Shown one piece after another: positions 48,400 to 64,000 of a stretch of 64,000 nucleotides of DNA. Positions within the stretch are counted from its first letter, which is position 1. Every line of letters starts with the position of its first letter. The stretch lies in assembly GCA_030628945.1 (NCBI GenBank), contig DAOVPY010000002.1:23831-87830 (forward strand). The letters are read 5' to 3'. A model generated the notes under the pieces. That model did not search any database. It saw only the letters and a program-made list of their open reading frames with translations, and was not told the DNA's origin. Source of the stretch: Candidatus Nealsonbacteria bacterium (GTDB lineage Bacteria > Patescibacteriota > Minisyncoccia > Minisyncoccales > DAOVPY01). Position numbers and translations under genes: made by a program.

Positions 48400-49662
48400 A
48401 TGACTAAAAAAACGCAGACTATTTTATCTTTGATTTGTTTGTTTCTTCTTTTCTTGACAGCGCCAATATCCATTTTTTACTCCCAGGGATACCGTTTTGA
48501 TTTTGAGGCGAAAAAAATTGTCCAAACCGGCGGTTTTTACGCCAAAACCCTGCCGAAAAGCGCTGAAATCCATATCAATGAAAAACTCAGAGAAAAAACC
48601 GACTTTTTATTTGGAACCGCGCTTATTAAAAATCTTTTGCCCAAAACCTATGAAATAGAAATAAAAAAACAGGGCTACCACCCCTGGAAAAAATCTTTGG
48701 AAATAAAAGAAAAACAGGTTACCGAGGCAAAAAATATTGTGTTAATTCCTGAAAATCCTGATTTTGTCCTTTTAGATAAAAATATAAAAAACTTTTGGTT
48801 TTCGCCAAATTCGCAAAAAATAATTCTTAAAAAAGAAAACGAAAAAGGCTGGATTTTAGATATTCTTGACATAAAACAGGATACTCAAACTCCGCTCCTC
48901 TCCGAAGAAAAAGTCGGACAAACGAATATTTTAGACCTTGTCTGGTCATCAGACTCAAATAAAATTTTATTGAAAACCCTGAATTCATTTTTTGTTTTAG
49001 AATTAGATAATCCGTCTATTATTTTCCCTTTGGACTTTTTAGGGAAAAACATTGAAAAAATATCTTTTGACCCATCCAATACAAAAAAAATATTTTTCTT
49101 CATGCCTTCAACAACCGCCAATTCTCTTTTTCTAATGAACTATCGCGAAAAAAAAATCCCTGAACCAATTTTAAATAATGTAATAACCTATGAAAATTTT
49201 GGGAAAGATATTATTTGGCTCTCAAGTGAGGGATTTGTTTATCGCAGTAATTCCAACGGAAAAATTTTACAAGTTTTTAATTCCAAGCCGCTCAAAACGC
49301 CTGAATCAATTAAAAATTTTATATTTTCTCCCGACAATAAAAAAATCGCTTATTCCAGCGATTTTGAAATCTGGATTTTCTTTTTGGAGCAGCAAGATTG
49401 CCAGCCCCAAAAAGCCATGGGAGAAAAAGTATTTCTAACCCGTTTTTCAAAAAAAATTGACAACTGCTTCTGGCTTACAAGCCATTATTTAATATTTAAT
49501 GTGGACAACAAAATAAAAATCGCGGAAATTGACGACCGCGACAGAATAAATATCATTGAATTGTGTGAATTTAAAAATCCGCAACTCTTCTTTAATCAAA
49601 ATGACAAAAAACTCTATATTCTGAGCGAAGGAAATTTATATCAATCAAAAAAATTATACTAA
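48400..49662 (+). CDS. membrane-anchored PEGA-domain / beta-propeller-like protein
   Basis: N-terminal TM. PEGA-like PKSAEIHINEKL...LPKTYEIEIKKQGYHPW. The C-terminal region has TolB-like repeats (FSPNSQKI, WSSDSNKI, FSPDNKKIAY). Confidence 0.55.
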   Translation: MTKKTQTILSLICLFLLFLTAPISIFYSQGYRFDFEAKKIVQTGGFYAKTLPKSAEIHINEKLREKTDFLFGTALIKNLLPKTYEIEIKKQGYHPWKKSLEIKEKQVTEAKNIVLIPENPDFVLLDKNIKNFWFSPNSQKIILKKENEKGWILDILDIKQDTQTPLLSEEKVGQTNILDLVWSSDSNKILLKTLNSFFVLELDNPSIIFPLDFLGKNIEKISFDPSNTKKIFFFMPSTTANSLFLMNYREKKIPEPILNNVITYENFGKDIIWLSSEGFVYRSNSNGKILQVFNSKPLKTPESIKNFIFSPDNKKIAYSSDFEIWIFFLEQQDCQPQKAMGEKVFLTRFSKKIDNCFWLTSHYLIFNVDNKIKIAEIDDRDRINIIELCEFKNPQLFFNQNDKKLYILSEGNLYQSKKLY

Positions 49663-50280
49663 TTTCTGGCATTCTTCCTGATATTCGCAATATTCGCAAC
49701 GCCAGTGTTCAATATCAGAAGGTATTGGAGGAATGCTATCTTCCTTAATCTGTTTTTCCAGAACTTCAAATTCCTTCAGAATATTTTTGACTAAACTTTC
49801 GTCATAATCAATTAAAAACTCTTTTAATTCCTGATTATCCTTATTTTCATAAAGCACTATGCCTTTTGGAATCTTGAAATAGTGTAAATAGAGTTGTAGT
49901 TGTTTTAAGTGACCTTGATCCGGAGCGGTTAATTTATCAAATTTGTATTTAGAAATACTTTTGATTTCTACCACGCAGGGTTTTCCATCTAATCCAATAA
50001 TTACATCTGCTCTCCCTGAAAAAAGTTGTCCATGCGGGGTCTTTACTTCTGCCGCCTGAACCACTCCCAAACTAAAAAGAGCGCTCACAATTCTGGTATG
50101 GGTCTGCTCGCCGTTATCAAAAATTCTTAGGACTCGCGGCTCGGTTTCTTTCTTGGGATATTTCTTGAATTTAAAATAAACCTGGCGCGGACATCTCGCA
50201 ACGTCAGTAACATAAAAATGCTTCTGCTCCCTGTCTTTAAATCTATCCCTATAAAATTGGTCAATGAGTTCCTTAAGCAT
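49654..50280 (-). CDS. Cas4/RecB-like PD-(D/E)xK exonuclease with a Fe-S cysteine cluster
   Basis: N-terminal Cys (DVARCPRQVYF), GRADVIIG...VVEIKS, QLQLY, C-terminal CEYCEYQEEC. Confidence 0.75.
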   Translation of the reverse strand: MLKELIDQFYRDRFKDREQKHFYVTDVARCPRQVYFKFKKYPKKETEPRVLRIFDNGEQTHTRIVSALFSLGVVQAAEVKTPHGQLFSGRADVIIGLDGKPCVVEIKSISKYKFDKLTAPDQGHLKQLQLYLHYFKIPKGIVLYENKDNQELKEFLIDYDESLVKNILKEFEVLEKQIKEDSIPPIPSDIEHWRCEYCEYQEECQKLV

Positions 50281-50448
50281 TAATCAAACTTTTTTATTTT
50301 CCTACCGCTTTGCCCACTGAAGTGATAAATGATACCACTTCAGACAAATCGCTTCTCTACGGCTAAATAAATAGGAATTAGAATAATCGGCTTCTAAGTG
50401 AATTATATTTTATTTCTATCAAATGTCAAAGGACTAAAAAAACCCAAC

Positions 50449-50640
50449 CTAAACTACGCGATCAATGTAGCGGTTGAGTTGTCTAATCAGCGGCTTCATT
50501 ATTAAAAGTCGCTCTCTGTATCTTAACAGTTTTCTATATTTTACTTCTGGGATTTTATAAATCCTTTGTTTTGTTTTAGTTTTATTTTCCATAGTTTTCC
50601 ACAGCTTAACCTTTCTACTTTTAATTTTAATGATTTTCAA
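50449..50640 (-). CDS. small basic hypothetical protein
   Basis: 63 aa, Lys/Arg-rich, downstream of the integrase. No motif recognised. Confidence 0.35.
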   Translation of the reverse strand: MKIIKIKSRKVKLWKTMENKTKTKQRIYKIPEVKYRKLLRYRERLLIMKPLIRQLNRYIDRVV

Positions 50641-50684
50641 ACCTTTGTCAAGTCCTGACTTGTCCCCAACATTTCCACAGCCCC

Positions 50685-51578
50685 CTAAACCTCATTCATA
50701 ATCCTCTGGTGCGTCTCTTTCGCTTTCCTTATTTCCACTTTCGCATAAAATTTCAAAGTGGTGCGCGGCGACTTATGCCGAGCAAGATGTTGAACCTCTT
50801 TTATTGTCGCACCCTTGTCTAATAATAAAGAACAAAAACTTCTTCTTAAAGAATGATGAGTGATCTGTTTCGTAAATCCAAACTCCTTTCTATATTTTAA
50901 CAAATGCTTTCTGGCTACACAAGACGATAATCTTGAAATCTTTTGCGGATTGTAAGTAATAAATAAATCCGGGCACTCATCTCCTCGCGTTGCCAAATAT
51001 CTTTTGAGCCAACTCAAACTTCTTTCCGAAAAATAAAGCCATCCTTCATTCTCTCCTTTTGCTCCTTTAATTTTTACTTCTCTATTTTCTAAATCAATAC
51101 CATTTTTATTAAGCGACAAAATTTCTGAAATCCTTGCTCCGGTTGAAAAAAGTATTTCGTATAATGTGCGATCCCGCAATCCGTAAAGAGTATGTAAGGA
51201 TATTTTTTCAACAAAATTGTTAAACTCTGTCTCGGTTAAAAAGTCCTGTTCTTTTTCGGCAACTTTTGGGACCTCAATTTCTCTCCAGTCAAACGGAATT
51301 TTTTCCCCGCTTTCTTTTAAGAATTTTAGATAGCGCCGAAGGGTGCAAATGGCCCGGGTTGGTCCATGTTCTCCGTGAGTCCTGCCGGCTTCTATAACTG
51401 AAGCCACATCGGCGATTTTCAAATGTTTTATTTTTTTATCTATCAATAAAGAATGCGAAACCGCGCCAAACAAAAATCGGCGATGTTCCCGGATTGTTTT
51501 TTCAGTCAATCCTTTCTGTCTCATGTATTCAAAATAATTTTGGAAGCCGTCTTTTACTCTCATAAAAAAACCACTCAT
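50685..51578 (-). CDS. tyrosine site-specific recombinase/integrase
   Basis: SAM-like N-domain. Catalytic pattern GARISEIL, HHSLRRSF, LARHKSPRTTLKFY. Confidence 0.9.
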   Translation of the reverse strand: MSGFFMRVKDGFQNYFEYMRQKGLTEKTIREHRRFLFGAVSHSLLIDKKIKHLKIADVASVIEAGRTHGEHGPTRAICTLRRYLKFLKESGEKIPFDWREIEVPKVAEKEQDFLTETEFNNFVEKISLHTLYGLRDRTLYEILFSTGARISEILSLNKNGIDLENREVKIKGAKGENEGWLYFSERSLSWLKRYLATRGDECPDLFITYNPQKISRLSSCVARKHLLKYRKEFGFTKQITHHSLRRSFCSLLLDKGATIKEVQHLARHKSPRTTLKFYAKVEIRKAKETHQRIMNEV

Positions 51579-51800
51579 CTACTCCCATCTTAACCTGGAG
51601 GGCAAAATAGTTTCAATGAGTGGCTCTTCTATTATACCAAAAGAACCAATTTCAATGAAACCGCTTACCTCCAGGTTCTTGCCAGAAGGCAAGGCGTCCC
51701 AAGGGACACAAGCGGTTCGTATTTAGTATAATATCCTATCTTACACAAACTAAAAACCCTGTCAAGGGCGACAAGATTTTTAGCAAAATTCTGGATCCTT

Positions 51801-52013
51801 TTATATTTGCGATTTGTTTATCAGTATAAGCTCGCTCGCTTCGTTTTGCCACTCCCTAAGCGCTTTCAGCATTGCCGCTACAATTCCGATTATTCCTGCC
51901 GGAAGCAAAATTTGAAATTCTTGCGAACTCAAAAGCCCGATGACTCCCGCCACTACAAAAATCTCAATGAACCGCATCACTATTCTCTTTATGGTTGTAT
52001 TATAAATGCTCAT
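51801..52013 (-). CDS. holin-like small membrane protein
   Basis: 70 aa with two TM helices, next to the lysin gene. Confidence 0.45.
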   Translation of the reverse strand: MSIYNTTIKRIVMRFIEIFVVAGVIGLLSSQEFQILLPAGIIGIVAAMLKALREWQNEASELILINKSQI

Positions 52014-52051
52014 GATGGTTTTTAGATTTCGTTTTTAAATTATTCGACCTT

Positions 52052-52438
52052 TTATAAATACTTCAAATAAAGCCCTGACCAATATCCAACCCAGTCATCT
52101 ATGCGTCCTTTCCTATATCTGTCAATCATTAAATTAACGCATTTGTTAATATCATTAAGGGCTTCCCATTTTGTAATTAGTTGCATTTTTTCAATATACC
52201 ATTCTGAATTATACTGACATAAACCATAATCATAACTGCCGTTCCAATTTCTGTTTATCGCTTTCGGGTTCATATCTGATTCAGCGTAGATTACTGCCAC
52301 TATCAAATTGCATTCCCATTCTTCTAATCTTCTCTTTTCGCAAATTCTTCTGACTTTTAATTCAACCCTTAATTTTTTAAGAGCTTGAAGCTGTAAAGAG
52401 ATTATTTTTTTAATAAGAGAAATGATTTTGAATTTCAT
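52052..52438 (-). CDS. lytic transglycosylase (SLT-domain) endolysin
   Basis: Start moved to MKFKIISL so that its ATG overlaps the upstream TGA. VIYAESDMNPKA...YDYGLCQYN fits the SLT E-S...GLxQ pattern. Confidence 0.7.
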   Translation of the reverse strand: MKFKIISLIKKIISLQLQALKKLRVELKVRRICEKRRLEEWECNLIVAVIYAESDMNPKAINRNWNGSYDYGLCQYNSEWYIEKMQLITKWEALNDINKCVNLMIDRYRKGRIDDWVGYWSGLYLKYL

Positions 52439-52701
52439 TTTGTTAAAATATAAATTATTAAAGCGGTAACGATAGTCACTAACGCGGTAATAAAATGAGA
52501 CAATCTCCAAGAGGGCTTTTCCACATTCTTAATAAGCGCTAAATTTAATTTTTCCCGCGATTCTTTTCTAAAATCGTTAAAATCTTTTACAAAGTGAGGG
52601 AAATCATTATCCAGAAATTTCAAAAACCGCTCTGATAAAACTTCCTGCCGGGCCATTCGTTCATATAGAGATATCTCTTTTTTGTTATTGTTTTCTGACA
52701 T
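52435..52701 (-). CDS. small membrane protein (holin or spanin candidate)
   Basis: 88 aa with a C-terminal TM (ITALVTIVTALIIYIL). Translationally coupled to the lysin. Confidence 0.45.
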   Translation of the reverse strand: MSENNNKKEISLYERMARQEVLSERFLKFLDNDFPHFVKDFNDFRKESREKLNLALIKNVEKPSWRLSHFITALVTIVTALIIYILTK

Positions 52702-52741
52702 AGGACTTTACAAAATTTTAATTATAAAGTATTAAATAATA

Positions 52742-52909: not shown

Positions 52910-52910
52910 T

Positions 52911-55900
52911 CTATAATCCTGGCAAAGTCGGCAATGATGGACTAAACAATTCCCCCATCGTTTTCTTTTTTTCTAATCCCGGCAACGTGGGAAGTTCAAG
53001 TTCCAATTTTTTAAATTCTTCAGGCAATTTGCCTGATTTTTTTTCTTTATATTTAGACGCTTTTCCAAACCACCAATAATATAATTTTCCACCAATGGGG
53101 ATATTCTGAACTGTTCTCATATCATTTACATCAAAACATTCATCTGGATTTTTCCATACTTTGGTTAAATCTTTCCATACATCGTCCACTACATTAGTCG
53201 GTGGTAGTATCTCGCCCGCAACGCGAGCGCCAAGTCCTTGTTCGGCTAATTCTCTTCTTTCCCACTTACTCGCAAAAAATAATTTAGCCGTGCTTTCTAT
53301 TACTCTATCAGAAAGTTTCATTTCTCTTCCGAGTATTATATCTTTTATTTCATCAGCAGTTGCTTCACAAGCCACTAATGCGGCTGTCAATTTTAGAAAA
53401 TTTGAGAAACCCTCAACAAAAGTTTCTTTTTTTGTCATTTTTGAAATAGCTTCTCGTCTATAAATATCCATCATTTTTATCGTCCAAGTTTTAAGCATAT
53501 AAAATATCTTACCATTTCCGCTTTTAAGATATTGTTCTGGCACTTCTGATAAAGCGACTGGCTGAAAATCTAATAATTTATTAAAAGCCAAATACTTCAC
53601 ATCATCAGTAATCTCTCCGCGTTGTAAATCTCTAATAATATCATCGGTTTTATCTCCGAAAACATCCGTTAATTCTTTCATAAATTTTTTATACTTTTGG
53701 ATATTTTTAGATTGATGCTGAAGTCGTCTAATAGTTGAATTGATTAAACTTTCTTTTCCAATAGCGTCTATTTTATCTAATCCAATTATCTTAAAAGTCT
53801 TATTAACCGCTTGCGACCCTTTGCTGGCATCGGCAAATTCTGAGGCAATTCTTTCTATCCCTAAATCAGCTTTCTTAATTTTTGCCTTTCCTATTATTAT
53901 TCTTGGCAATCCTGTAATTGTTCTAATTAGTCCGCCGGAATAAATACTGAAAGCTAAGTCGCCAATCTGGGTTATAGCGTTATAAGGACTACCCATTACG
54001 GTAATATAAGAGAGATTTTTAATTGGTCCGACAACCCTACCCATTTTTCCAGGGTTAAATCTCGCTCTTAAAATAGATGTTAATTCTTTTTCCTGGGCTA
54101 CTGTTATTTTTCCTTTGGCCATTAAATCCATAACATAAGCGCCGATACTATTGTCTATGTGTAATCCTCCCTCCACATCGGTTATAATATGTTTTCCAAA
54201 AAATTTGCGAGCCTCTATTGCATCATTCACCTGGTCAATATAAGAAATAATGGTTTTATCCGATTCTAAATAAAATTGGTTGAGTTCTGGACTGATAAAA
54301 TCCAATACTCTTTCCTTCATCGCGGCAGTTTTTGAAAGAGCTACCTGTCCTCGGCCATATCCTCTTATGGCTGTATTGATAAGATACGCTTTTTCATCGG
54401 CGTCTAACACTCTGCCTAATATCATTTCTTTTTCTTTAATGGCCGCGTCAAATTTACTCCAGTCATCTCTTTTCATTATAAATTCTAAAAATCCTTCAGG
54501 GTCTTTGATTATTCTCGGCCAATAATTTTTCTCGTAGCCAAGTTCGTATCCAACATCATTGGCTCTCTTGTAAAGGTCATCAAGAGTATCTTTAACTTTT
54601 AGATACTCATTTTCCATTTTGTATTTTTTCGCTAATTCAAATACTTTATCTTGTTTTCCATTTTTCAGAGCCAAATCAAGTTCCAGCCAATCTGTTTTAC
54701 TCATTCCTTTTTTTATTAAAAATCCTCTGGGTTTTGCTTTTTCTAAAAAGTTTTTGGCAATCGTTTTATCCGCCGCGCTTTTAGTTTTAATTTCATACTC
54801 CATTCTTCTAATCGCTCTTTTCAAAGAAATATCTATATTTTCAAGCCGGGTAGAAATAACTCCTATTATATTTTCAATTTCTTTTTTGGGCTCTTTCGCC
54901 GCTTTTTTTATTCTTTCTATTTTCGGTTCCTTAATCCCTTTCAAAATTCTGTTCGCTTCATACATTTCTTCTGTAATCTCCGGAGCTTCTTTTCCTATTG
55001 CTTCAATTTTTGGAACAAACCCTCTTGCTTTCTTAAAAGCCAACCGCTCTTTCATTTTATTAAGAATTTTTTCAAGTTCTGTTGTGTTCATTTTTCTAAG
55101 CGGTTTTAAAATTCCAAACTCTTTTTTTATTTCGTTAATTGGGGTTTGATTAAATTCGCCTAATAATTTTTGATAAGATATTTTTGTTCTCATTAATCCC
55201 CTTTCCTTATGTATATTTTTTAAAATTCCTTTTTCTATATCAGATTGAATAGTTGCCATTTCTATTTTTTGCTTATTTAAAATTTCAGCAATTTTGTTTT
55301 GTATTTTTTGAGAAATACTTTTTAATTCAGATTCATCCGCTTGTTTAATTCTGGCTATCTCTTTTCTATCGGCGATTTGAGATAATAATTTTTTTCTCAT
55401 TTCTCTTTTTCCTGCTTCTACTCCTATCCGAGCTCCTCGCGCTTCAGCCCTCAATTTTGCTTTTAATGCTGCTTTTTCTGTTGGTATTATTTTTATACGA
55501 CCTGCCTCTATTGCCGTTGGTGAAATAACTTCACCTGGTTTTTCTATCGGTTTAATAATCTGTTTCAATGTTTTTGTGGGTTTTATCTCTGCGGCTTTAA
55601 TTATCTTCTCTGACTTTATCTTTGTAGTTTTTTGTATCTCATCAACCCTATTTAGTATTTTGGCTATTTCATCGGCTTTGTTTGTTTCTGCGATTACTTT
55701 TGAAAAAGAAGGAATTAAATCATCGGCAACATTTACTTTTTTAAGAATTTTTACCACATCATCAACTTTATTCATTTTTGCTAAAATTTTAATCACTCCG
55801 CTTTTCCCAGCTCCCCAGCCGGTAAAATCAAGTCCGATTACAGCACCAACTCCTAACGCACCGAATCCTAATGGATATTTTTCAAATGGTTTTATTTTAT

Positions 55901-56414: not shown

Positions 56415-56458
56415 ATCTAAAAAAGATAAATAAAATAAAACTTCTAATCCTCGGTTTT

Positions 56459-57688
56459 TTACTTAATTCCTGGTAATCTGTGCCAAATTTCGCTTAAAAA
56501 ACCTTTTTTCTTTTTTCCGTAAAATTTATCTAATGCCATTTCTACCTCTAACGGAATTGGTTTCTCTGCTTCTTTATACATATTTTCAATATCTTTCCTG
56601 GTCTTACCATAATCAAAATACTCTTTTATCATCTCGTCTGCGATTTCCTCCGGCGTTTTTTCCTCTGCTTTTTCTTTTTCAAAAATATCAGATAATACTT
56701 TTTGTGCTTCACTTTCTGGCATTCCAATCAATCCATACTTTGCAGCCCACTCACTCCAGCCAACTGTTTTTTCCGGTTCTGGCTTTTTTGCCTCCGCCTC
56801 TCTTAACGCCATTAACCTTTCGTCAAGCCCAAATCCTTTTTCCCATCTCTCCGTTTTTTCTTCCTCGCTCAATTCTTTAATCAATGCTGTCTGATAACTT
56901 TTTACTAAACCACTTAATCGTTTTTCCTCGCTTTCCCAATAAGTATATTTGGTGCCGGCGTCTTTCATTCCATATCCAACCTTTCTGGTTACCTCGTCTA
57001 TGCCGGTATTGTATTGACTGGCTAAGGTATTTCTCTGGTCTATGAGCCGATTTAAATCAGCTGTCGCAGCATCTACTTCTTCTTTCTTTCTTCCCTTAAT
57101 CATCCATTGAGGAATTGGCTTGCCCATTTCGTCAAGCAACATCTTATCTCTTAAAGATTTTCTATTTGTAATATCTGTATCAATTCCAGCAATTTTGGTT
57201 TTCGTATCTCCTAATCCAACCTTGCCATATTCGTCTTCGTAAAGGCTCACCTGTAGTCCGAGCATTTCATCGTAGGCGCTTTTTTTCTCTGTTCCTGCCG
57301 TGGCTAAATCGGTCTGAATTTTACTGTAATTGTAAATATCAGTCGGCTTGCCCGGTTCCGCTATTTCTTCCTTCTGAAATTCGTCCACACCTGCCCCCAC
57401 GGGGGCTTTCGGCTCTTCTAAGGCATACAATCCTCTTCCCGCGGCCTCACCCCCTAATTGAGCGCTAATCTCCTCAGCTCGTTTCACTGGCTCTGTTTTC
57501 AACGGCACTTCACCCGTTCTCGGTATTCCCGGCCCAACAACCCCCGGGATAGGCGTGTAATGAGTAACTGAAAGGGGTTTAGGTTTCAGCGCTACCTCTT
57601 GTATCTTCGGTCGAGCCAAAAACTCAGCCAGAGTTCCCGGTTGTGGTTTCCTATATTTTGGTTTGAAATAATCAGTTAAAAATGCCAT
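56459..57688 (-). CDS. phage hypothetical protein (409 aa)
   Basis: Pro/Gly-rich N-terminus, then a charged helical region. Lies in the structural block. Confidence 0.5.
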   Translation of the reverse strand: MAFLTDYFKPKYRKPQPGTLAEFLARPKIQEVALKPKPLSVTHYTPIPGVVGPGIPRTGEVPLKTEPVKRAEEISAQLGGEAAGRGLYALEEPKAPVGAGVDEFQKEEIAEPGKPTDIYNYSKIQTDLATAGTEKKSAYDEMLGLQVSLYEDEYGKVGLGDTKTKIAGIDTDITNRKSLRDKMLLDEMGKPIPQWMIKGRKKEEVDAATADLNRLIDQRNTLASQYNTGIDEVTRKVGYGMKDAGTKYTYWESEEKRLSGLVKSYQTALIKELSEEEKTERWEKGFGLDERLMALREAEAKKPEPEKTVGWSEWAAKYGLIGMPESEAQKVLSDIFEKEKAEEKTPEEIADEMIKEYFDYGKTRKDIENMYKEAEKPIPLEVEMALDKFYGKKKKGFLSEIWHRLPGIK

Positions 57689-57689
57689 A

Positions 57690-57905
57690 TTATTTTTGTG
57701 GTTGTTTCGCTAATTTAATCTTGCCCGTCTTAAGGTCTATTTCGTAGTTTTGATTCATATCTAAAGAATAACGAGGGAGCAAATTTTTAATATAAATCTG
57801 ATTTTGAATTTCTAAAGCCTGAGAAATCAAGATATGCTGATTTATCAAATCAGCTCTTTTTTTTAATTCTTCTAAATCTTCTGATTTTAATTTTTTCTCA
57901 AACAT
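57690..57905 (-). CDS. phage hypothetical small protein
   Basis: 71 aa. Its stop is adjacent to the next gene's start. Confidence 0.4.
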   Translation of the reverse strand: MFEKKLKSEDLEELKKRADLINQHILISQALEIQNQIYIKNLLPRYSLDMNQNYEIDLKTGKIKLAKQPQK

Positions 57906-57978: not shown

Positions 57979-58533
57979 ATGGACACAAAATCTTTAATCA
58001 GCGGAATTTTAATCGGGGCTATTGCTATTCCTACCTTAGGAATGGCCGGCTCATTTACCAGTTCTCTCATTGCCGGTAAAACTCCCGCTGAAGCTGTAGA
58101 AATCCTCGCCACTCGGATTGACACTCTCATCGGCCGGGTTGAAATTGTTGAGACCAAACAGACAAAAACCGAATTGTGGCAAGAAAAAGAAGATGCGTGT
58201 AATAAGGCAAGAGACTTTTTGACTGAAAATATGCCTACTGGATATAAATGGTTTTTAGACACAATTTCTCGTCGAGAAAGAGGTATTATGGGAACTGAAT
58301 CTCAAATTAGTCTTCTAATCTGTCAAGGATTTGTGAAAGAAGAAGAAGATTGCAAAATCGGAGAAGTAAATTGTAAAGGCAAATGCATAACAGTTGAAGA
58401 TAGAAAAAATTCGCAAACATACTTAGAAACAAATGCTAAACCAGAACTTTCAAGACTTATTTCTATCAAAGAACAATATTTATTGCTTAAACAGAAATGT
58501 GATGATTTAACCGACCAATATAATTCTTTATAA
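57979..58533 (+). CDS. opposite-strand membrane-anchored Cys-containing protein (moron candidate)
   Basis: 184 aa. N-terminal TM (GILIGAIAIPTLGMAG). Followed by its own hairpin terminator. Confidence 0.55.
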   Translation: MDTKSLISGILIGAIAIPTLGMAGSFTSSLIAGKTPAEAVEILATRIDTLIGRVEIVETKQTKTELWQEKEDACNKARDFLTENMPTGYKWFLDTISRRERGIMGTESQISLLICQGFVKEEEDCKIGEVNCKGKCITVEDRKNSQTYLETNAKPELSRLISIKEQYLLLKQKCDDLTDQYNSL

Positions 58534-58561
58534 AAAGAACTAATCTTTAATTTTATTTTCT

Positions 58562-58586
58562 GTCGCTCTTTATGAGCGATTTTTTA
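58562..58586. terminator. bidirectional hairpin between convergent genes
   Basis: gtcgctc-tttat-gagcgat followed by tttttattt. Confidence 0.6.
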
Positions 58587-60035
58587 TTTGAGCTCTAAAT
58601 TTTCAACTTTTTCCAAAATCTCTTTTTGACCCTTGATCAACATTCCAATAACTGGTTTTAAATCTATGCGTTTTTTATTCTTTTTCCCGGATATCTCCAA
58701 CTGAAATTCTTCTGGGAAAGCACGAGTATTAAAACAAAGTCCTTCTTTCTTCAATATCGTTGGTGCTTTTATTTTCTTTAATTGTTCAATTCCCGAAGCA
58801 AAAGTAGGAATAGGAGAGCCAGCATTTCTCTCATCGTAATAACATAAATCTCTAAAGTTGTTATCGCCGTCAGCACATCTTGGTCTTCGTTTGTTAGGCG
58901 TTGCTTCCCAATTCTGAAAGAACATTTGTCCACAATATTTATTAGCTGTTGGGTCGGAACTAAGATAATTCAACCTTATTCTTGTTAGAAATTTCGTTTG
59001 ATAAGAATAAAAATCCTGAAGTGCAGTAGCTCCGTGATAAATTTTTCCATAAGAAGAATTAAATTTTAAATATTTTAAAAATACATCTCTCCAATAATAA
59101 ACAGAAGTGCCTAAATCATAAGATACAGATACTCCAGGTATTAAGTTAACAGCTGACATATTACAATCATTTGAAGCTAAAAATCTCGCGTTTCCATTAT
59201 AAGAAAGACCTACTCCACTTGGTCCATTTAATAATAACTGACCCGCTCCACTATCTGTTATCCAACTTAATAGCGAATTTGCTGCATTCCACCATGTTAA
59301 ATAATGATGATAACCCGCATGTTTTAGTTCTACTCGAAAATTTCCATCTGGCGCGGTTTGCATCTTTATAGCCGTCAAAGTTCCAACAGTGATTTTATTA
59401 GCGTTTAAATCATTTGCTATTTTTAAATTGGTGACTTGTGCATCTCCAATTTTGGCTGTGGTGATAATCGCATTTTTAATCTGGGCTGATAAAGTAATAA
59501 GCTGTCCTGTGGTCACCTTTGCCGATGTCACGGCGTAAGCGTCTATCTTCTCGGTTGTAATTGCCCCTGATAATATTTTTATGGCTGTCACTGCTCCTGT
59601 CGCGATTTTCCCGGCATCTATTGCTCCTACTTGGATTTTTGGCGTGCTTATGGCAAGATTACCAATTTTAGTTTCAGTAATCGCTCCAGCCGCTATTACA
59701 GCGCCCTGGATAGCATTCACAGCTATCTTAGCGTTTGTTACTGCTTGGCCGGCCAATTTTATTTCAGTTACCGCTCCATCAAAAAGATATTTATTGATTG
59801 CTCCCTCCGGTAAGTCATCGGAATCGTGATTTGCCAAATTCATAGCGCCGCTTTCTATTCCTGCCAGTTTTACTCCCTCTATCTTATTAATGTCTTTTAA
59901 CTCTTCCGGCTTCACTAAAAGGTTTTTATAAGAAATCAATTTCGGAAAAGGTTTGTCCTCAATCGACCAGTCCGGGTAATAAACTTTATTTTTTTCTTCT
60001 TTTGACATATTTAATAATCTCTTATAATGGTTCAA
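58584..60035 (-). CDS. tail-fibre-like protein with short periodic repeats
   Basis: Run of GA(V/I)T..KI-type repeats (AVTNAKIA, AITETKIG, AIDAGKIA, AVTAIKIL, AITTEKID, AVTSAKVT...), then a globular C-terminal domain. Confidence 0.6.
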   Translation of the reverse strand: MNHYKRLLNMSKEEKNKVYYPDWSIEDKPFPKLISYKNLLVKPEELKDINKIEGVKLAGIESGAMNLANHDSDDLPEGAINKYLFDGAVTEIKLAGQAVTNAKIAVNAIQGAVIAAGAITETKIGNLAISTPKIQVGAIDAGKIATGAVTAIKILSGAITTEKIDAYAVTSAKVTTGQLITLSAQIKNAIITTAKIGDAQVTNLKIANDLNANKITVGTLTAIKMQTAPDGNFRVELKHAGYHHYLTWWNAANSLLSWITDSGAGQLLLNGPSGVGLSYNGNARFLASNDCNMSAVNLIPGVSVSYDLGTSVYYWRDVFLKYLKFNSSYGKIYHGATALQDFYSYQTKFLTRIRLNYLSSDPTANKYCGQMFFQNWEATPNKRRPRCADGDNNFRDLCYYDERNAGSPIPTFASGIEQLKKIKAPTILKKEGLCFNTRAFPEEFQLEISGKKNKKRIDLKPVIGMLIKGQKEILEKVENLELK

Positions 60036-61608
60036 AATAATTATTGATAAACAAAATTTCAGGCGTAAAATTTCCCGAAGAATACAATTTCAAACGAACT
60101 TCGTAAACCTCGCCTTGTCCTTCTAAATCAAAAATTGCTTTTGTTTCTCCAATAATTGTATATGCCTTTCCGCTGCCTGTTGTTCCTTTATAAGCTCTTG
60201 CAAGGGTTAATTCTGTAGCAGAGACCACTGCCTGAATCTCATATGGTTTGTCATCTTCATCAACCTTGAATTTTCTTCCCACCATTGACGAATCCCATGA
60301 TGTTTCGGATCCCATTACCGTAACCAAATTATTAGTGACTGAAACCGTCCCTGCCTTATAATCGTCTTTATCAAAAACATCTGATTCGTCCTGCATTGCG
60401 GTTTCTAAATAATCTCCTATTCCATTGACGCGGTATTCAACCTTAACCGAACAGCCTAATGGTAAGGGTTTAGTAAGTATTTTAATGTGCCGGAATAAAG
60501 AATCTTTGTCAGCCTTAAATTCTAAAGATTCGTAAACCGCTTCGGCTTTATTGTCAGGGTCAATGTTATCTAATCCATAAGTTTCTCCATCCTTCCACGC
60601 CACAAGAAAATCATCGCCCCTGCCTAATATCGCCCCAATTTCTATGCTCTTTGAATCTATATTCGCTATGGTTATAGGTGAAGGTGTGTATTCCGCATTC
60701 AAGACCATTGGATAATTTTTATTTCTCTGATGATAAGAATAAACAAAGTTTATCCCGCCAAAAAGCATTTTTCCTTTCCAAACGTCAATTGCTCCCTGTC
60801 TAATTTGTGATGGTAATTCTCTTGCTTTATCTGTTACTCCCTGGCTAAACCAATATAATAATTCACCGGCAAAAATAAAAGTTGTCCCAATTGCTTTTAA
60901 GAAAGCGTTAATATCTCGTTCCTCCCAACCTTCCACCGGATCGTATGACTCAGAGGTTAAATCCCAGGTGACCATTTCTGCTTTCTCGTAATTTTTTGCT
61001 CCGATTAAAAGATTCGGTTTGTCCAAATCTAAGCATTGAATTTCCCAACCATAAAATAAATCCAATGCTTGATTATTCCACACTTCGCCGGCGCTTAAAG
61101 TGGCCACGTATCTCTTATTTCCAATACACATTAAATCTGATTTAGGAACAATAAAAATCGGATGTTTAGTATAGGAATATAATGTCTTCCAATTCGGTAA
61201 TGCATCGGCATTCCAATCAGAAGAAGTTTCAATGCATCTACCCAATTTTGTGGCAGTTGTAAAATAAAGATATCCATAAAAATATTCGGCATCTAATATT
61301 GCTCCGTTCGGATTGGTATAAACCTTAGTGACGGTTTCATTAACTATTTTGTAAACATTACCGGCATCTCCAAATCCATAAGACTTAGTGGCCGTAACTG
61401 GCACGGTTTTAATAATTAAATCCGTCACTTGATGATCCCCTGAATCTGGCGAAATCTTTTTCAATCTTTGATTCGCCGAAAGTGTGTTCGCATTCTTTTT
61501 ATGAATATTTAATCCCCACCCATTTTTAAATGAGCCTGGCACTCCCCGACCACCTTCGGAACTTTTTCCTCCGCAAAAATTATTGATTATAAAATTTGGC
61601 AATTGCAT
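60022..61608 (-). CDS. phage structural protein (528 aa)
   Basis: Overlaps the fibre gene start. Aromatic-rich and beta-rich in appearance. No motif recognised. Confidence 0.5.
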   Translation of the reverse strand: MQLPNFIINNFCGGKSSEGGRGVPGSFKNGWGLNIHKKNANTLSANQRLKKISPDSGDHQVTDLIIKTVPVTATKSYGFGDAGNVYKIVNETVTKVYTNPNGAILDAEYFYGYLYFTTATKLGRCIETSSDWNADALPNWKTLYSYTKHPIFIVPKSDLMCIGNKRYVATLSAGEVWNNQALDLFYGWEIQCLDLDKPNLLIGAKNYEKAEMVTWDLTSESYDPVEGWEERDINAFLKAIGTTFIFAGELLYWFSQGVTDKARELPSQIRQGAIDVWKGKMLFGGINFVYSYHQRNKNYPMVLNAEYTPSPITIANIDSKSIEIGAILGRGDDFLVAWKDGETYGLDNIDPDNKAEAVYESLEFKADKDSLFRHIKILTKPLPLGCSVKVEYRVNGIGDYLETAMQDESDVFDKDDYKAGTVSVTNNLVTVMGSETSWDSSMVGRKFKVDEDDKPYEIQAVVSATELTLARAYKGTTGSGKAYTIIGETKAIFDLEGQGEVYEVRLKLYSSGNFTPEILFINNYFEPL

Positions 61609-61633
61609 TTTACTTTATTTTTTAATTATGTAT

Positions 61634-62293
61634 TCAATCCCACCTTGAACATTTTGCTTGGCCGATAAAGCCCCCTGCCGGTTCCTCTTCTTCTCTGGCA
61701 ATCATTCTGGCTAATATCCCTCCCGATCCTTCTATTCTTGGGTTAGCTGGCGCCTCTACCTCTCTTCTTTCATCTAACGCTCCATTTCTCTTCCTTGCTT
61801 TTTGAAGACAAGTCGCAAAAGCCAGTTTCACAATTGACTCATCAAGTTCGCTAGGCGTCACTGGTTCGTCATTGTTATCTACTAATTTCTTCCATTTTTT
61901 AATTCCCCAAATATCTATTACTAAATCCGCTTCGCTGGGAGTTGGGCCAATAAAGTAAAATCCATTATGGGAACAAAAAACTTTCTTTGTGCTTTCGTTT
62001 ATCCGACAGGCCTGATAATCACTCCATTTTTTAATCTTAGTATATTTTTTGCTGTCAACTTCTAAATGATAAATGCTGTTTTCTTGAAACTCGTCGGGGT
62101 AATCATAATATTCACCATCAACCTTTGTCTTTGTAAATTTCGCGTATTCTAACGCTTTCCAATTATAATAATTGCACACTCTTTCGCCTGCATTATTAAG
62201 CCATTGTTTTTTCATTGCTTCGTTCCAGAAACCCGAAATCTTAGCCGCAGAGATTCTATTGTTTAACTCCGTAAGGAATTCGCTTAGTTTCAT
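61634..62293 (-). CDS. phage hypothetical protein (219 aa)
   Basis: Lies in the structural block. No motif recognised. Confidence 0.5.
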   Translation of the reverse strand: MKLSEFLTELNNRISAAKISGFWNEAMKKQWLNNAGERVCNYYNWKALEYAKFTKTKVDGEYYDYPDEFQENSIYHLEVDSKKYTKIKKWSDYQACRINESTKKVFCSHNGFYFIGPTPSEADLVIDIWGIKKWKKLVDNNDEPVTPSELDESIVKLAFATCLQKARKRNGALDERREVEAPANPRIEGSGGILARMIAREEEEPAGGFIGQAKCSRWD

Positions 62294-62298
62294 ATTTT

Positions 62299-64000
62299 TT
62301 AAAAATATTTATTTTGATAAAATGTATTTCGTTTGGAATATTTATTTTGATAAAATGTATTTCGTTTGGAATATTTATTTTGATAAAATGTAGGCACTTT
62401 AATCCGGTCCGCTCCCACTCCTGCCTCCTGGATTAAAATCTTGGCTAAAATTTCCGCAATCACATCTACTCCGGCCCCGCTATCAATCAAATCCACAACG
62501 CCTTTCATTACTACTTGGTCCGCTCCCGCGCCAGTATCTTGAAGCAATAACTTTGCCACAATAAGTTTAATAATATCGTTTCCTACTCCCTGGTCATCTA
62601 TATCTACCAATCCCAACATTTCTGCTGTATCCTGCCCTACTCCGCTATCTTCAATTTTTAGTCCAGATTTTATGCCAATCACCTCCGCTCCTGCTCCTGC
62701 TTCGATTAATAATAATTTCGCTTTAATGGCAGAAATTAAATCTGCTCCTATTCCTGAATCCTGAATTGCTTTTACTAATTTTATTTCCAAAAATGTTTCA
62801 TTTCCTATACCCGAATCTAAAATTGACTTCGCGTGAATTTTTAATATTGCGTCAACTCCACTCCCTTGATCTGCTATCGGTATTTTTCCTGTAATTAATG
62901 CTATTAAATCTACCCCTGCCCCACTCTCCGTTAAATTGAATTGTGCTTTTATGCCCGACATATCTGATCCCTGTCCTGTATCTTGTAAAGTTAATTTATT
63001 TACTATTGAAAGCGCATCTGCTCCAGAACCTAAATCGGAAACTTCTTTTTGGGTTATTATTGTATAAGTCACGCTCAAATAAGGGTCAGAACCAGTATTA
63101 GCGTATTCAGAAGACCTAAACGCCATATTTAATTTACAAACAGAAATATAAGTATCTCCTATATCCCACTCAACATCACGAATGCCGAATGCTGTCCATC
63201 CTGTTTTGTTAATCGCGTTTCTTCCTGCTTCATTAAGAACCCAAGCTACTTCAGTGCCAGCACTAGCCCAATCACTACCTAATCTATCAGTAGCCAAAGC
63301 TGTGCTTCCAAATTTAGTTCTATCCCAATCTCCTACAGCTAAAACAGTGTTAGATGTTCTTGTATGAGCCAATAGGCGGAAATAAGATGTCATTGCTCCT
63401 GATGCTGTTAGATATGCAGTAGAATGAAAAGTAGCCGCAGATATAACAGCACTATCATCTAATCCCGAAGTATCAAAAGGAAATGAAGACCTTACTAATC
63501 TACTACCTCCCAAATCTCCTATAACAACTTCCCAGTATGCAGCAGTGTATTGAGCCCACTCAGAACTGACGGCAGCCACAAGTGTATGCCACGCAGCTTC
63601 GTCCGCAATATTATATTTTCCCATACGCCCATCTCCTGCCCCAGCAAAATAACTTGTAGTAGTATCTGTTCTTATGGGATAAATCGCTTTTTCTAAAAAC
63701 TCTCTTGGTATTCGTTTAATCATCTTTCCTGCTAAAAATTCCATTTCAATGTCTAAGCTTCTTCCCCCATTTTCTTCCCAAACTCTTGCATTTCTAAAAT
63801 GAATATCTTTTTCTTGAAATCTCTGGTCTATTTTTTTAATAAAAGAACTATTTGTATCAAATTCTATTTCAAAGAAATCGCCTGTAAATTCGGGTTTCTT
63901 TTTAATTATTATTTCTTTTCTGAAAGAATTATATCCACAGGATAATTGAAAATCTATATTCGGTGCTATTTCGGAATAAGTAATTTGACAATGTTCAGTT
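62299..64000 (-). CDS. phage structural repeat protein, N-terminus beyond window
   Basis: The track starts at Met 63744, but the same frame stays open to base 64000 (own translation ...TEHCQITYSEIAPNIDFQLSCGYNSFRKEIIIKKKPEFTGDFFEIEFDT...LDIEMEFLAGK). Confidence 0.7.
   Translation of the reverse strand, partial: TEHCQITYSEIAPNIDFQLSCGYNSFRKEIIIKKKPEFTGDFFEIEFDTNSSFIKKIDQRFQEKDIHFRNARVWEENGGRSLDIEMEFLAGKMIKRIPREFLEKAIYPIRTDTTTSYFAGAGDGRMGKYNIADEAAWHTLVAAVSSEWAQYTAAYWEVVIGDLGGSRLVRSSFPFDTSGLDDSAVISAATFHSTAYLTASGAMTSYFRLLAHTRTSNTVLAVGDWDRTKFGSTALATDRLGSDWASAGTEVAWVLNEAGRNAINKTGWTAFGIRDVEWDIGDTYISVCKLNMAFRSSEYANTGSDPYLSVTYTIITQKEVSDLGSGADALSIVNKLTLQDTGQGSDMSGIKAQFNLTESGAGVDLIALITGKIPIADQGSGVDAILKIHAKSILDSGIGNETFLEIKLVKAIQDSGIGADLISAIKAKLLLIEAGAGAEVIGIKSGLKIEDSGVGQDTAEMLGLVDIDDQGVGNDIIKLIVAKLLLQDTGAGADQVVMKGVVDLIDSGAGVDVIAEILAKILIQEAGVGADRIKVPTFYQNKYSKRNTFYQNKYSKRNTFYQNKYF
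62304..62392. repeat. 33-bp tandem repeat, about 2.7 copies
   Basis: The unit aatatttattttgataaaatgtatttcgtttgg is repeated head to tail. It encodes TFYQNKYSKRN x3 at the C-terminus of the repeat protein. Confidence 0.95.

What the first reader, a model, noticed from the sequence alone, without database searches (positions are those of the whole stretch)
49654..64000. Prophage-like region extending past the window
Read in the direction of transcription (minus strand), the order is structural repeat protein, 219-aa, 528-aa, fibre-like, 71-aa, 409-aa, 1167-aa tape-measure-like, then the membrane protein/SLT lysin/holin-like trio. Next come a structured spacer, a tyrosine integrase, a small basic protein and a Cas4-like nuclease. 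I could assign almost none of the structural proteins to a family, which suggests a poorly sampled CPR phage lineage. The capsid and terminase genes and the other attachment site should lie beyond 64000.
Basis: partly seen in the sequence, partly recalled or inferred. Interest (0 to 1): 0.55.

Follow-up and report, generated by a model that had tools for sequence, protein, structure and literature searches.

The report
Complete prophage inserted in rpsI
The region is one end of a complete 36.4-kb tailed-phage genome integrated into the last codons of the ribosomal protein S9 gene of a candidate-phyla-radiation bacterium; this is a well-delimited but ordinary kind of element, and the Cas4-like gene next to it belongs to the host.

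Summary
The prophage call is right, but its left edge and two labels are wrong. A 99.96%-identical sibling scaffold extended the window by 27.8 kb. Beyond 64000 lie an SU10-type capsid, portal, large and small terminase, and a replication/recombination module, then host rpsI-rplM-rplQ-rpoA. An exact 17-bp direct repeat (CAGTGGGCAAAGCGGTA, the last five rpsI codons plus TA of the stop) sits at window 50303-50319 and at the rpsI stop, bounding 36,394 bp. Seven related Nealsonbacteria/Parcubacteria genomes have rpsI directly followed by the Cas4-like gene with no phage. So Cas4-like (49654-50280) is a conserved host gene. A related phage contig (L099) joins integrase, a near-identical core and Rad52, which is the attP form. 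The integrase family carries an S9 C-terminus string downstream of int in 20 of 57 loci and none in controls. The 1167-aa protein is not supported as a tape measure: it has no family match, lies after the fibres, and has polyvalent-type relatives. The lineage is abundant in metagenomes but has no close GenBank phage. This is a new member of a known kind. Extras are a promoter-core-terminator attP layout and a structured integrase leader with compensatory changes.

The parts
49654..50280 (-). Cas4-like PD-(D/E)XK nuclease, 208 aa. It is a host gene flanking the prophage, not part of it. Its start lies 21 nt after the TAG that completes the int-proximal core copy, which was the rpsI stop at the unoccupied site.
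   Evidence: Pfam PDDEXK_1 and Cas_Cas4, about 1e-7. Found directly downstream of rpsI at 47-49% identity in L014-L018, L020 and L021, with no phage genes present.
50303..50319 (-). Integrase-proximal attachment-site core. On the minus strand it reads CAGTGGGCAAAGCGGTA, which encodes Q-W-A-K-R plus TA of the stop.
   Evidence: An exact 17-bp direct repeat with the 3' end of rpsI, 36,394 bp away. It occurs once in the window, against 0.04 expected. The longest repeat in 300 shuffles was 15 bp. The same core, 16 of 17 bases, sits between int and Rad52 in the related contig L099.
50317..50448 (-). Phage arm (P arm) of the attachment site. It holds a perfect TTGACA-16-TATAAT promoter (50429->50402) that reads outward through an 8-bp-stem hairpin (50343->50317) and the core into the host Cas4-like gene.
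   Evidence: The promoter scores 12 of 12. The arm is about 95% identical in the related prophage L165, while the neighbouring ORF is about 50% identical. Promoters scoring 10-12 of 12 lie 50-115 nt upstream of the core in 11 related loci.
50449..50640 (-). Small basic ORF downstream of int (63 aa; gene callers give 47 aa, 50449-50592). It is a candidate excision or directionality factor. An 11/12 promoter lies just upstream, at 50651->50624.
   Evidence: ORF list. A 47-aa gene was called in all sibling assemblies and in L165. Weak homologues follow int in L110 and L111. No Pfam or PHROG family.
50685..51578 (-). Tyrosine integrase, 297 aa.
   Evidence: PF00589, 1.6e-26; phrog_1, 9e-36. In the 37-sequence family alignment R149, K174, R245 and Y278 are invariant, and H242 and H268 are nearly so. 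The family is associated with rpsI-type cores.
51579..51800 (-). Structured spacer. A terminator-like hairpin follows the lysis genes (about 51784-51750). Next come two small hairpins and a long outer stem (51677-51668 pairing with 51602-51592). The outer stem encloses an extended -10 box, TGGTATAAT (51639->51631), just upstream of int.
   Evidence: The minus-strand RNA fold is -85.5 kcal/mol, z = -6.6. The plus strand folds at -58.2, z = -3.4. No Rfam family matches. Compared with L165, 7 of 62 pairs changed on both sides and 94.8% of cells are paired, against 38-50% in the slid controls.
51801..52013 (-). Holin-like protein, 70 aa, with two hydrophobic segments.
   Evidence: Sequence. No family match. 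The assignment rests on position and hydrophobicity only.
52052..52438 (-). Lysozyme-like / SLT transglycosylase (128 aa; the longest ORF reaches 52510). Probable endolysin.
   Evidence: PF01464 SLT, 3.2e-5; SLT_3; phrog_34720. Gene calls.
52435..52701 (-). 88-aa protein with a C-terminal membrane anchor. Lysis accessory candidate.
   Evidence: Sequence. No family match.
52911..56414 (-). 1167-aa virion-module protein. An N-terminal module of about 270 aa is shared with other CPR-phage giant proteins. A C-terminal module of about 640 aa, predicted all-helical, is shared with polyvalent-type phage proteins. It is probably a packaged or ejected internal protein, not a tape measure.
   Evidence: No Pfam, PHROG or PDB match. 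It has 26 relatives, and one of them carries ART-PolyVal. It lies after the fibre genes and last in the virion module, as it does in relatives. BFVD hits to a 'PcfJ-like' fragment score 2.5e-14, while tape-measure hits score E >= 0.7, on a low-confidence model.
56459..57905 (-). 409-aa and 71-aa proteins of unknown family in the virion module.
   Evidence: ORFs. No family match. Conserved in the sibling assemblies.
57979..58533 (+). 184-aa ORF on the opposite strand inside the tail module, with an N-terminal hydrophobic segment. Moron candidate.
   Evidence: ORF and gene calls. No family match.
58584..60008 (-). Tail fibre protein, 474 aa.
   Evidence: phrog_892 tail fibre, 4.5e-19, plus 11 other tail or virion PHROGs; Pfam Phage_Tail_Tip, 2e-4.
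60022..61608 (-). 528-aa tail protein with a tail-fibre N-terminal-type domain at residues 417-486.
   Evidence: phrog_1980, 1.8e-13; phrog_2712; phrog_24607.
61634..62293 (-). 219-aa putative tail protein.
   Evidence: phrog_6013 'tail protein', 1e-3; weak.
62299..64000 (-). C-terminal 567 codons of a 735-aa repeat-rich tail protein. The gene starts at about 64506, outside the window. A 33-nt x3 tandem repeat lies at its 3' end.
   Evidence: Full-length gene in L001. The repeats hit phrog_1696, 6e-9.

Best explanation
Window 50303-64000 is the integrase-proximal 13.7 kb of a complete 36,394-bp temperate tailed-phage genome. It is integrated by its tyrosine integrase into the 3' end of rpsI (ribosomal protein S9) of a Nealsonbacteria-like CPR bacterium.

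Read along the minus strand, the order is:
- host rpoA-rplQ-rplM-rpsI
- att core and a phage terminator
- the early module: Rad52-like protein, exonuclease, RepO-like protein, ParB, ATPase, methyltransferase
- TerS, TerL, portal, scaffold(?), SU10-type capsid
- tail and fibre genes, then the 409- and 1167-aa proteins
- the lysis cassette (88 aa, SLT, 70 aa)
- a structured leader, int, a small basic ORF and an outward promoter
- att core, then the host Cas4-like gene.

Shown:
- The phage site carries the last five rpsI codons plus TA, so S9 stays intact after insertion and only the stop changes, from TAG to TAA.
- Relatives have empty sites.
- A related phage has the joined (attP) form.

Inferred:
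- The phage arm next to rpsI supplies a strong terminator that shields the early genes from read-through of the ribosomal operon.
- The arm next to Cas4-like supplies a consensus promoter that restores transcription of that host gene, which otherwise lies only 21 nt behind rpsI.
- The virion is probably short-tailed, and the 1167-aa protein is probably a packaged or ejected internal protein rather than a tape measure.

Whether the prophage is inducible is unknown.
For: Extension of the contig:
- L001, L004 and L006 come from a 144,953-bp scaffold that is 99.96% identical to the window over 13,979 bp.

Phage genes beyond 64000:
- SU10_MCP, 4.7e-42.
- Portal: phrog_1216 and SU10_portal. Homologues carry PF23899 and PF16510.
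- TerL phrog_675, 1.9e-70, and TerS phrog_2538.
- Rad52, exonuclease, RepO and ParB.

Boundaries:
- An exact 17-bp direct repeat lies at 50303-50319 and at the rpsI stop. No shuffle gave a repeat longer than 15 bp.
- The empty site, rpsI followed directly by Cas4-like, occurs in L014-L018, L020 and L021.
- The attP form is seen in L099 (int at 68% identity, core 16 of 17, Rad52 at 75%) and in L133.
- A related prophage in a different host (L165) has the same phage arm. Its identity to the window ends inside the core, CAGTGGGCAAA|, which is best explained by crossover within those 11 nt.
- The S9-tail string lies downstream of int in 20 of 57 family loci and in none of the controls.

Insulating elements:
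- The terminator has a 15-bp stem plus a U-run, z = -5.4.
- The promoter scores 12 of 12 and is conserved in relatives.
Against: - No excised circle or empty-site contig was found among the sibling samples by exact-protein look-ups, so activity is unproven.
- No CI/Cro-type repressor was recognised.
- Coordinates beyond 64000 come from a sibling assembly that differs from the window by 5 SNPs.
- The promoter and terminator roles rest on sequence only, and CPR promoter rules are assumed to be sigma-70-like.
- In the circular form the same terminator lies between the promoter and the early genes, so the promoter's role in the phage cycle is unclear.
- The short-tail inference rests on gene order, portal and capsid family, and the absence of tube or tape-measure matches. 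It does not rest on a positive identification of adaptor or nozzle proteins.
Confidence: 0.86

Rival explanations
1. The element starts at 49654 and includes the Cas4-like nuclease. It is a long-tailed (sipho-type) phage whose 1167-aa protein is the tape measure.
For: The Cas4-like protein hits phage families strongly (phrog_1706, 2.6e-35), and Cas4-like nucleases are common in phages. The 1167-aa protein is long and predicted to be all-helical, as tape measures are.
Against: The Cas4-like gene lies outside the direct repeats. It sits next to rpsI in seven phage-free relatives, at a divergence similar to that of housekeeping genes. In attP-form relatives int is followed by Rad52, not by Cas4. 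The 1167-aa gene lies after the fibre genes. No tube, chaperone or tape-measure family was hit. Fold matches to tape measures score E >= 0.7.
Confidence: 0.06
2. A cryptic or domesticated prophage: integrated and bounded as described, but no longer able to excise or to form particles.
For: No attP or attB junction contigs were found in four sibling assemblies. No repressor was recognised. The early region has no strong promoter of its own. Decayed elements occur at the same target in other CPR genomes (L149/L150).
Against: All 47 or so genes are intact, with a full head, packaging, tail, lysis and replication set. The two att cores are identical. The copies in different samples are almost identical, and three of their four differences inside genes are synonymous. 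Close relatives exist in the non-integrated form.
Confidence: 0.15
3. An assembly chimera: a free phage genome joined to a host contig by the shared 17-mer.
For: A 17-bp repeat shared by phage and host could mislead a de Bruijn assembler.
Against: The int-Cas4 junction was assembled independently in four samples or assemblers (L009-L013). The rpsI junction is on two long contigs, of 145 and 161 kb. A related prophage shows the same junction type in another host (L165).
Confidence: 0.02

Closest known systems
Tyrosine integrases of Streptococcus ICEs and IMEs that insert in the 3' end of rpsI (Ambroset et al. 2016, PMC4701971)
   Same: The target is the same: the 3' end of the S9 gene. The logic is also the same: a conserved housekeeping gene is targeted, and the element carries the gene's last codons so that the product is preserved.
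   Different: Here the element is a tailed phage in a CPR bacterium, not a conjugative element in Firmicutes. Whether the integrases are related beyond PF00589 was not tested.
Classical temperate phages with tyrosine integrases that insert at the 3' ends of genes and duplicate the end (for example phage 21 in icd, and tRNA-targeting lambdoid phages; my own knowledge)
   Same: int lies next to attP. There is a short identity core, the target gene's 3' end is reconstituted, and direct repeats flank the prophage.
   Different: No recognisable CI/Cro module was found. All genes but two small ORFs are co-oriented. A promoter and a terminator flank the core.
SU10 (Kuravirus) and P22-type podovirus head proteins (Pfam PF17236 SU10_MCP, PF23899 SU10_portal, PF16510 P22_portal)
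   Same: The capsid protein passes the SU10_MCP threshold (144.9 bits against 24.1). Portal homologues carry PF23899 and PF16510.
   Different: Identity to any GenBank phage is 30% or less for the MCP and about 25% for TerL, and the portal has no match at all. No tail protein of SU10 or P22 was matched. The genome is 36 kb and temperate.
Proviruses reported in Patescibacteria MAGs (PMC12455944; PMC12960796)
   Same: Temperate phages of a few tens of kb in Paceibacteria-class genomes. Proviruses were reported in 20.4% of 519 Patescibacteria MAGs.
   Different: The passages I read from those surveys mention no attachment sites or integration targets, and 'integrase' does not occur in PMC12455944. 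Here the boundaries, the target gene and the attP form are resolved to the base.
Polyvalent / large virion proteins of phages (Pfam ART-PolyVal PF18760, LPD38 PF18857; the packaged-and-injected role is from my own knowledge of Iyer et al. 2017, which I did not read)
   Same: The C-terminal module of the 1167-aa protein is homologous to part of a 1919-aa phage protein that carries ART-PolyVal. Its N-terminal module is shared with a protein that carries LPD38.
   Different: No defining polyvalent domain (ART, MuF or LPD) was detected in the 1167-aa protein itself.

Membership tests
Integrated tailed-phage genome (Caudoviricetes prophage) | HK97-type major capsid protein, portal and large terminase | tested here: met
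   SU10_MCP, 4.7e-42. Portal: phrog_1216, 2.4e-6, with PF23899/PF16510 on homologues. TerL: phrog_675, 1.9e-70, and PF05876. All three lie beyond 64000, on the extended scaffold.
Integrated tailed-phage genome (Caudoviricetes prophage) | Flanking direct repeats (attL/attR) that coincide with a synteny break | tested here: met
   A 17-bp exact repeat lies at 50303-50319 and at the rpsI stop.
Integrated tailed-phage genome (Caudoviricetes prophage) | Unoccupied site in related genomes, and a joined attP in related phages | tested here: met
   Seven empty sites. attP forms in L099 and L133.
Integrated tailed-phage genome (Caudoviricetes prophage) | Excision, replication and particle formation | not testable with these tools
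   No junction contigs were found. Reads or culture would be needed.
Tyrosine recombinase / phage integrase (PF00589) | Catalytic R-K-H-R-H/W-Y residues and a domain match above threshold | tested here: met
   PF00589 scores 93.6 bits against a cut-off of 27.1. R149, K174, R245 and Y278 are invariant, and H242 and H268 nearly so, in 37 family members.
Tail tape measure protein | A match to a tape-measure family model | tested here: not met
   No Pfam or PHROG hit for the 1167-aa protein. None of its homologues carries a tape-measure domain either.
Tail tape measure protein | Gene lies between the tail tube/chaperone genes and the distal-tail/fibre genes | tested here: not met
   The gene follows the fibre genes and is the last virion gene before the lysis cassette, both here and in relatives. 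No tube or chaperone gene was detected.
Tail tape measure protein | Structural similarity to known tape measures | tested here: inconclusive
   The AF2 model is poor (pLDDT 54.9) and all-helical. BFVD tape-measure hits score E >= 0.7.
Cas4 (CRISPR-associated) | PD-(D/E)XK nuclease with a four-cysteine cluster | tested here: met
   Cas_Cas4, 1.4e-7, above the cut-off. One N-terminal Cys (..ARCPRQ..) and a C-terminal CEYCEYQEEC are visible in the sequence.
Cas4 (CRISPR-associated) | Encoded next to cas1/cas2 or a CRISPR array | tested here: not met
   Its neighbours are rpsI and a PD40-like membrane protein, here and in seven relatives. It is a stand-alone Cas4-like nuclease.
Polyvalent protein | At least one defining domain (ART-PolyVal, MuF or LPD) in the protein itself | tested here: not met
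   None is present in the 1167-aa protein. ART-PolyVal is found only in the homologue P0129 (5.9e-26), and LPD38 only in P0144.
Short-tailed (podovirus-type) virion | Adaptor and nozzle proteins, and internal/ejection proteins, identified | not tested
   Support is indirect only: portal and capsid family, gene order, and a layout like that of CRP-810, which has an annotated internal virion protein.

The most novel reading that the evidence does not exclude
The attachment region may act as a regulatory switch as well as a landing site. Integration separates the only consensus promoter (in the P arm) from the co-oriented early operon. That operon has no strong promoter of its own, and in the lysogen it lies behind a phage-supplied terminator. 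The same promoter is redirected into a host nuclease gene. Integrase is preceded by a conserved structured RNA that encloses its own extended -10 promoter, so read-through transcripts and promoter-initiated transcripts would fold differently. That logic resembles lambda sib, but acts from upstream. Lysogeny in this CPR phage lineage would then be held by genome topology and RNA structure rather than by a CI-type repressor.
Probability: 0.15. Interest if true: 0.6.

Novelty: new member of a known kind. Interest (0 to 1): 0.4.

Why it matters
CPR/Patescibacteria make up a large share of bacterial diversity and have almost no experimentally tractable phages. This case gives a base-resolved example of lysogeny in that group. 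It defines a complete 36.4-kb genome, its integration target (the rpsI 3' end) and its attP, attL and attR. It also links a compact integrase family to that target across many metagenomic loci.

That knowledge has practical uses:
- Prophage boundaries in CPR MAGs can be set more reliably by looking for a duplicated S9 C-terminus next to this integrase family.
- It separates a conserved host Cas4-like gene from phage cargo.
- It offers a site-specific integrase and att pair that could become a genetic tool for organisms that have none.

It does not change how prophages are understood in general.

Tried and rejected
- An exact look-up of the '481-aa' protein found nothing, because that ORF is a truncated 735-aa gene.
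- A genome-contig scan with the 1167-aa protein found nothing.
- An IMG/VR scan with the integrase alone found nothing.
- PDB sequence searches with the 1167-aa protein and with its family profile gave only chance-level hits.
- An AF2 model of its C-terminal 638 aa from a 9-sequence alignment was poor (pLDDT 54.9). Foldseek against PDB gave nothing with E below 1.
- A covariance model of the int-upstream element, built from four related loci, recovered only those four. Homology between that subgroup and the window's element is therefore not shown. The compensatory evidence comes instead from the closer relative L165.
- Rfam found no family in 50200-52100.
- Exact-protein look-ups found no attP or attB contig in the sibling samples.
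- CRP-810, the GenBank phage with the closest capsid, shares no other detectable protein with this phage.
- Pfam found no repressor-like domain in ten small early ORFs.

I considered and rejected tRNA-Ile/tRNA-Ala (45.6-45.8 kb) as the integration site. MFS, YbaK-like and PD40-like host genes lie between them and the phage, and relatives share that synteny.

Full report
**Observation.**
- Phage character is real. The 474-aa protein hits tail-fibre families (phrog_892, 4.5e-19, and eleven others). The 528-aa protein has a tail-fibre N-terminal-type domain (phrog_1980, 1.8e-13). The repeat protein hits phrog_1696.
- The 128/152-aa protein has an SLT/lysozyme-like domain. The 297-aa protein is a tyrosine integrase (PF00589, 1.6e-26; phrog_1, 9e-36). 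The 208-aa protein is a Cas4-like PD-(D/E)XK nuclease.
- The rest of the window is ordinary cellular DNA: GyrB, PheT, AspS, ClpB, a PBP, an FeFe hydrogenase and tRNAs.
- One listed ORF is incomplete. The '481-aa' repeat protein is open to the window end and is the C-terminal part of a 735-aa protein.
- A 184-aa ORF on the opposite strand (57979-58533) sits inside the tail module and was not listed.

**Extending the contig.** An exact-protein look-up of the 528-aa protein found a 144,953-bp scaffold from a sibling sample. It matches window 50022-64000 with 5 mismatches in 13,979 bp. Two further steps walked 27.8 kb past the window end. The first used the portal and the second a small early gene, both obtained as cluster members. 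Going outward from 64000, the scaffold carries:
- the rest of the 735-aa gene, then three small genes;
- a 396-aa capsid protein (PF17236 SU10_MCP, 4.7e-42; phrog_1328, 5.4e-33);
- a 294-aa scaffold candidate and five small genes;
- a 614-aa portal (phrog_1216, 2.4e-6; SU10_portal, 1e-6; homologues carry PF23899 and PF16510);
- TerL (PF05876; phrog_675, 1.9e-70) and TerS (phrog_2538);
- an N6/N4 methyltransferase, a KH protein, a DUF87/HerA-like ATPase and ParB;
- a RepO-like initiator, an exonuclease (phrog_298, 3.6e-33), a Rad52-like protein and a 69-aa gene;
- host rpsI, rplM, rplQ, rpoA, rpsD, rpsK, rpsM, infA and alaS.

The predicted capsid and terminase genes therefore exist, and the element ends about 22.7 kb beyond the window.

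**Boundaries.**
- The longest exact repeat between the two ends is 17 bp, TACCGCTTTGCCCACTG. It lies at window 50303-50319 and at extended coordinate 86697-86713. None of 300 shuffles exceeded 15 bp, and the motif occurs once in the window.
- On the coding strand it reads CAGTGGGCAAAGCGGTA, which is the last five codons of rpsI (Q-W-A-K-R) plus TA of the stop.
- The prophage is 36,394 bp. S9 is unchanged by the insertion, and only the stop codon differs (TAA in the lysogen, TAG at the other copy).
- The Cas4-like gene starts 21 nt beyond the int-proximal copy, so it lies outside the element.

**Independent tests of the boundaries.**
1. Empty sites. A scan of species-representative genomes with the host RpoA returned Candidatus Nealsonbacteria/Parcubacteria MAGs as the closest relatives, at 62-67% identity. 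In seven of them the order is rpoA-rplQ-rplM-rpsI-Cas4-like, then the convergent PD40-like gene (then MFS in two). The Cas4-like protein is 47-49% identical, and there is no hit to integrase, Rad52, SLT or the 1167-aa protein. The Cas4-like gene is thus a vertically conserved host gene, and the phage is an insertion between it and rpsI.
2. Joined form. In the metagenome contig L099 the integrase is 68% identical to the window's. It is followed by AGTGGGCAAAGCGGTAA (16 of 17 core bases), a terminator hairpin, and homologues of the 69-aa gene (68% identity) and of Rad52 (75% identity). This is exactly the attP reconstructed from the two ends. L133, on a 37.6-kb contig, shows int, then QWAKR*, then Rad52 and the exonuclease.
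3. A second host. L165 is a related prophage end whose integrase is 86% identical. It lies next to a Cas4-like gene, but with different host genes beyond. Its phage arm is about 95% identical to the window's up to CAGTGGGCAAA. It then diverges (AAGATAA against GCGGTAG), following that host's own rpsI codons. I take this to place strand exchange within the left 11 nt of the core.
4. Family level. Of 57 metagenomic loci with an integrase of this family, 20 carry a [QK]W.[KR]R-stop string within 600 nt downstream of int on the same strand. None was found on the opposite strand or upstream. Forty-four of the loci have at least 450 nt downstream.
5. Decayed copies. Remnants flanked by duplicated rpsI ends occur in near-complete CPR contigs (L149/L150).

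**How it probably works.**
- Shown by sequence: the integrase has the conserved catalytic residues. R149, K174, R245 and Y278 are invariant, and H242 and H268 nearly so. It lies 365 nt from the core.
- Inferred: two elements flanking the core look like insulators.
  - Thirty-five nucleotides after the rpsI stop, the phage arm forms a 15-bp-stem hairpin followed by UUUUUUAUU. L099 keeps the same hairpin with different stem bases. It would stop ribosomal-operon transcripts from entering the early genes.
  - On the other arm, a 12/12 TTGACA-16-TATAAT promoter (50429->50402) points through the core into the Cas4-like gene. Promoters scoring 10-12 of 12 occupy the same place in eleven related loci.
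  - In this genome, and in L017 and L018, the Cas4-like gene starts 1-22 nt after rpsI. It must therefore normally be co-transcribed with rpsI. The phage promoter would compensate for the 36-kb interruption.
- Caveat: in the circular phage the promoter, core and terminator form a unit of about 170 nt whose own role is unknown.

**The structured spacer.**
- The 222 nt between the holin-like gene and int fold far better than shuffles on the transcribed strand (-85.5 kcal/mol, z = -6.6). The other strand folds much less well (-58.2). No Rfam family matches.
- The element consists of a terminator-like hairpin, two small hairpins, and a long stem that encloses an extended -10 box (TGGTATAAT).
- Against L165 the region is 79% identical, and 7 of 62 pairs changed on both sides. 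Four of those are in the outer stem (AACCTGGAGG/CCTCCAGGTT becomes AACTTTCAAG/CTTGAAAGTT). In all, 94.8% of cells are paired, against 38-50% when the partners are slid.
- More distant relatives show the same architecture with other sequences, and with their own compensatory changes. A covariance model built from those relatives did not reach the window's element.
- I regard it as a real structured element in the int leader. Its function is untested.

**The 1167-aa protein.**
- It has no Pfam, PHROG or PDB match and only 26 detectable relatives.
- Its N-terminal 270 aa or so recur in CPR-phage giant proteins that have other C-termini; one of these carries LPD38. Its C-terminal 640 aa or so recur in large phage proteins; one of these carries ART-PolyVal (5.9e-26).
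- In two relatives the homologue is again the last virion gene.
- The AF2 model is helical but of low confidence. BFVD matches are to fragments of giant phage proteins ('PcfJ-like', 2.5e-14). Matches to tape measures are not significant.
- Other evidence points the same way. The portal and capsid are P22/SU10-type. No tube or chaperone genes were found. The layout mirrors Roseobacter phage CRP-810, whose capsid is the closest in GenBank at 30% identity. That phage's virion module ends with an annotated 'internal virion protein D', 2016- and 839-aa proteins, and then the lysis genes.
- A short-tailed virion with internal or ejected proteins is therefore more likely than a tape measure. This is an inference and is not shown.

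**Sampling and novelty.**
- The portal family has at least 222 relatives at 45-75% identity. Many lie on 33-39-kb contigs. Others lie on long contigs named Paceibacterota, Parcubacteria or Woesebacteria. IMG/VR holds at least 58.
- No GenBank phage record matches the portal. TerL and MCP reach only 25-30% identity.
- Proviruses in Patescibacteria are already reported. The 3' end of rpsI is a known target of streptococcal ICE integrases.
- The finding is therefore a well-resolved new member of a known kind. The attP layout and the int leader are the parts that may repay further work.

**Limits.**
- Everything beyond 64000 is read from a sibling assembly.
- Activity of the prophage, the promoter and terminator functions, the RNA element's role and the tail type are all untested.
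- No repressor was recognised. The early region has no strong sigma-70-like promoter of its own. The speculative topology-switch reading in the novel case rests on those two negative results.

Noticed in passing
window 39707-45607: A low-GC island (0.32, against 0.385 for window 1-39000) lies beside tRNA-Ala/tRNA-Ile. It holds two large ORFs (513 and 463 aa) with no Pfam family, a fused D12 + N6_N4 DNA methyltransferase (628 aa), a DUF4325 protein and a 190-aa protein (phrog_3364). It may be a restriction-modification or defence island.
   Followed up: partly
window 45636-45795: A tRNA-Ile(GAT)/tRNA-Ala(TGC) pair, which usually sits in the 16S-23S spacer, stands alone here. Rfam finds no rRNA gene anywhere in the 64-kb window.
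   Followed up: no
window 57979-58533 (+): A 184-aa ORF on the opposite strand inside the tail-gene block has an N-terminal hydrophobic segment and no family match. It is a moron or lysogenic-conversion candidate. One of the 5 SNPs between assemblies (57938) lies just upstream of it.
   Followed up: no
window 51579-51800 (-): The structured int leader encloses an extended -10 box. It shows compensatory changes against L165, and relatives have analogous architectures (L099, L102-L105, L109, L113). No Rfam family matches.
   Followed up: partly
window 62299-62400: A 33-nt unit is repeated three times at the 3' end of the 735-aa tail gene, giving TFYQNKYSKRN x3 at the C-terminus.
   Followed up: no
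L149 and L150, 6008-8751: Two large CPR contigs (624 and 661 kb) carry an exact 17-nt direct repeat of their own rpsI 3' end (CAGTGGCAGAAGCGCTA), the copies 2.7 kb apart. Between the copies lies a C-terminal fragment of an integrase of this family. This looks like a decayed element at the same target.
   Followed up: partly
L123, L125, L152, L153, downstream of int: Two or three tandem copies of an S9 C-terminus-like string lie within about 60 nt of each other after the integrase. They may be traces of repeated integration at rpsI.
   Followed up: no
L114 748-6861; L106-L108, L117, L118: In L114 a related integrase lies only 4.9 kb downstream of rpsI, which suggests a small element at the same site. 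Five other loci (L106-L108, L117, L118) carry two paralogous integrases of this family in tandem.
   Followed up: no
L008 1-980 versus L006 8700-9230: A sibling-sample contig shares the phage early genes from the 100-aa gene onward but has different small genes upstream of it. The early region is therefore mosaic among co-occurring variants.
   Followed up: no
window 54531, 54534, 54537: Three of the five differences between the window and the sibling scaffold are third-codon-position changes spaced 3 nt apart in the 1167-aa gene. A fourth (55331) changes residue 362 (Ser in the window, Ala in the sibling scaffold).
   Followed up: yes
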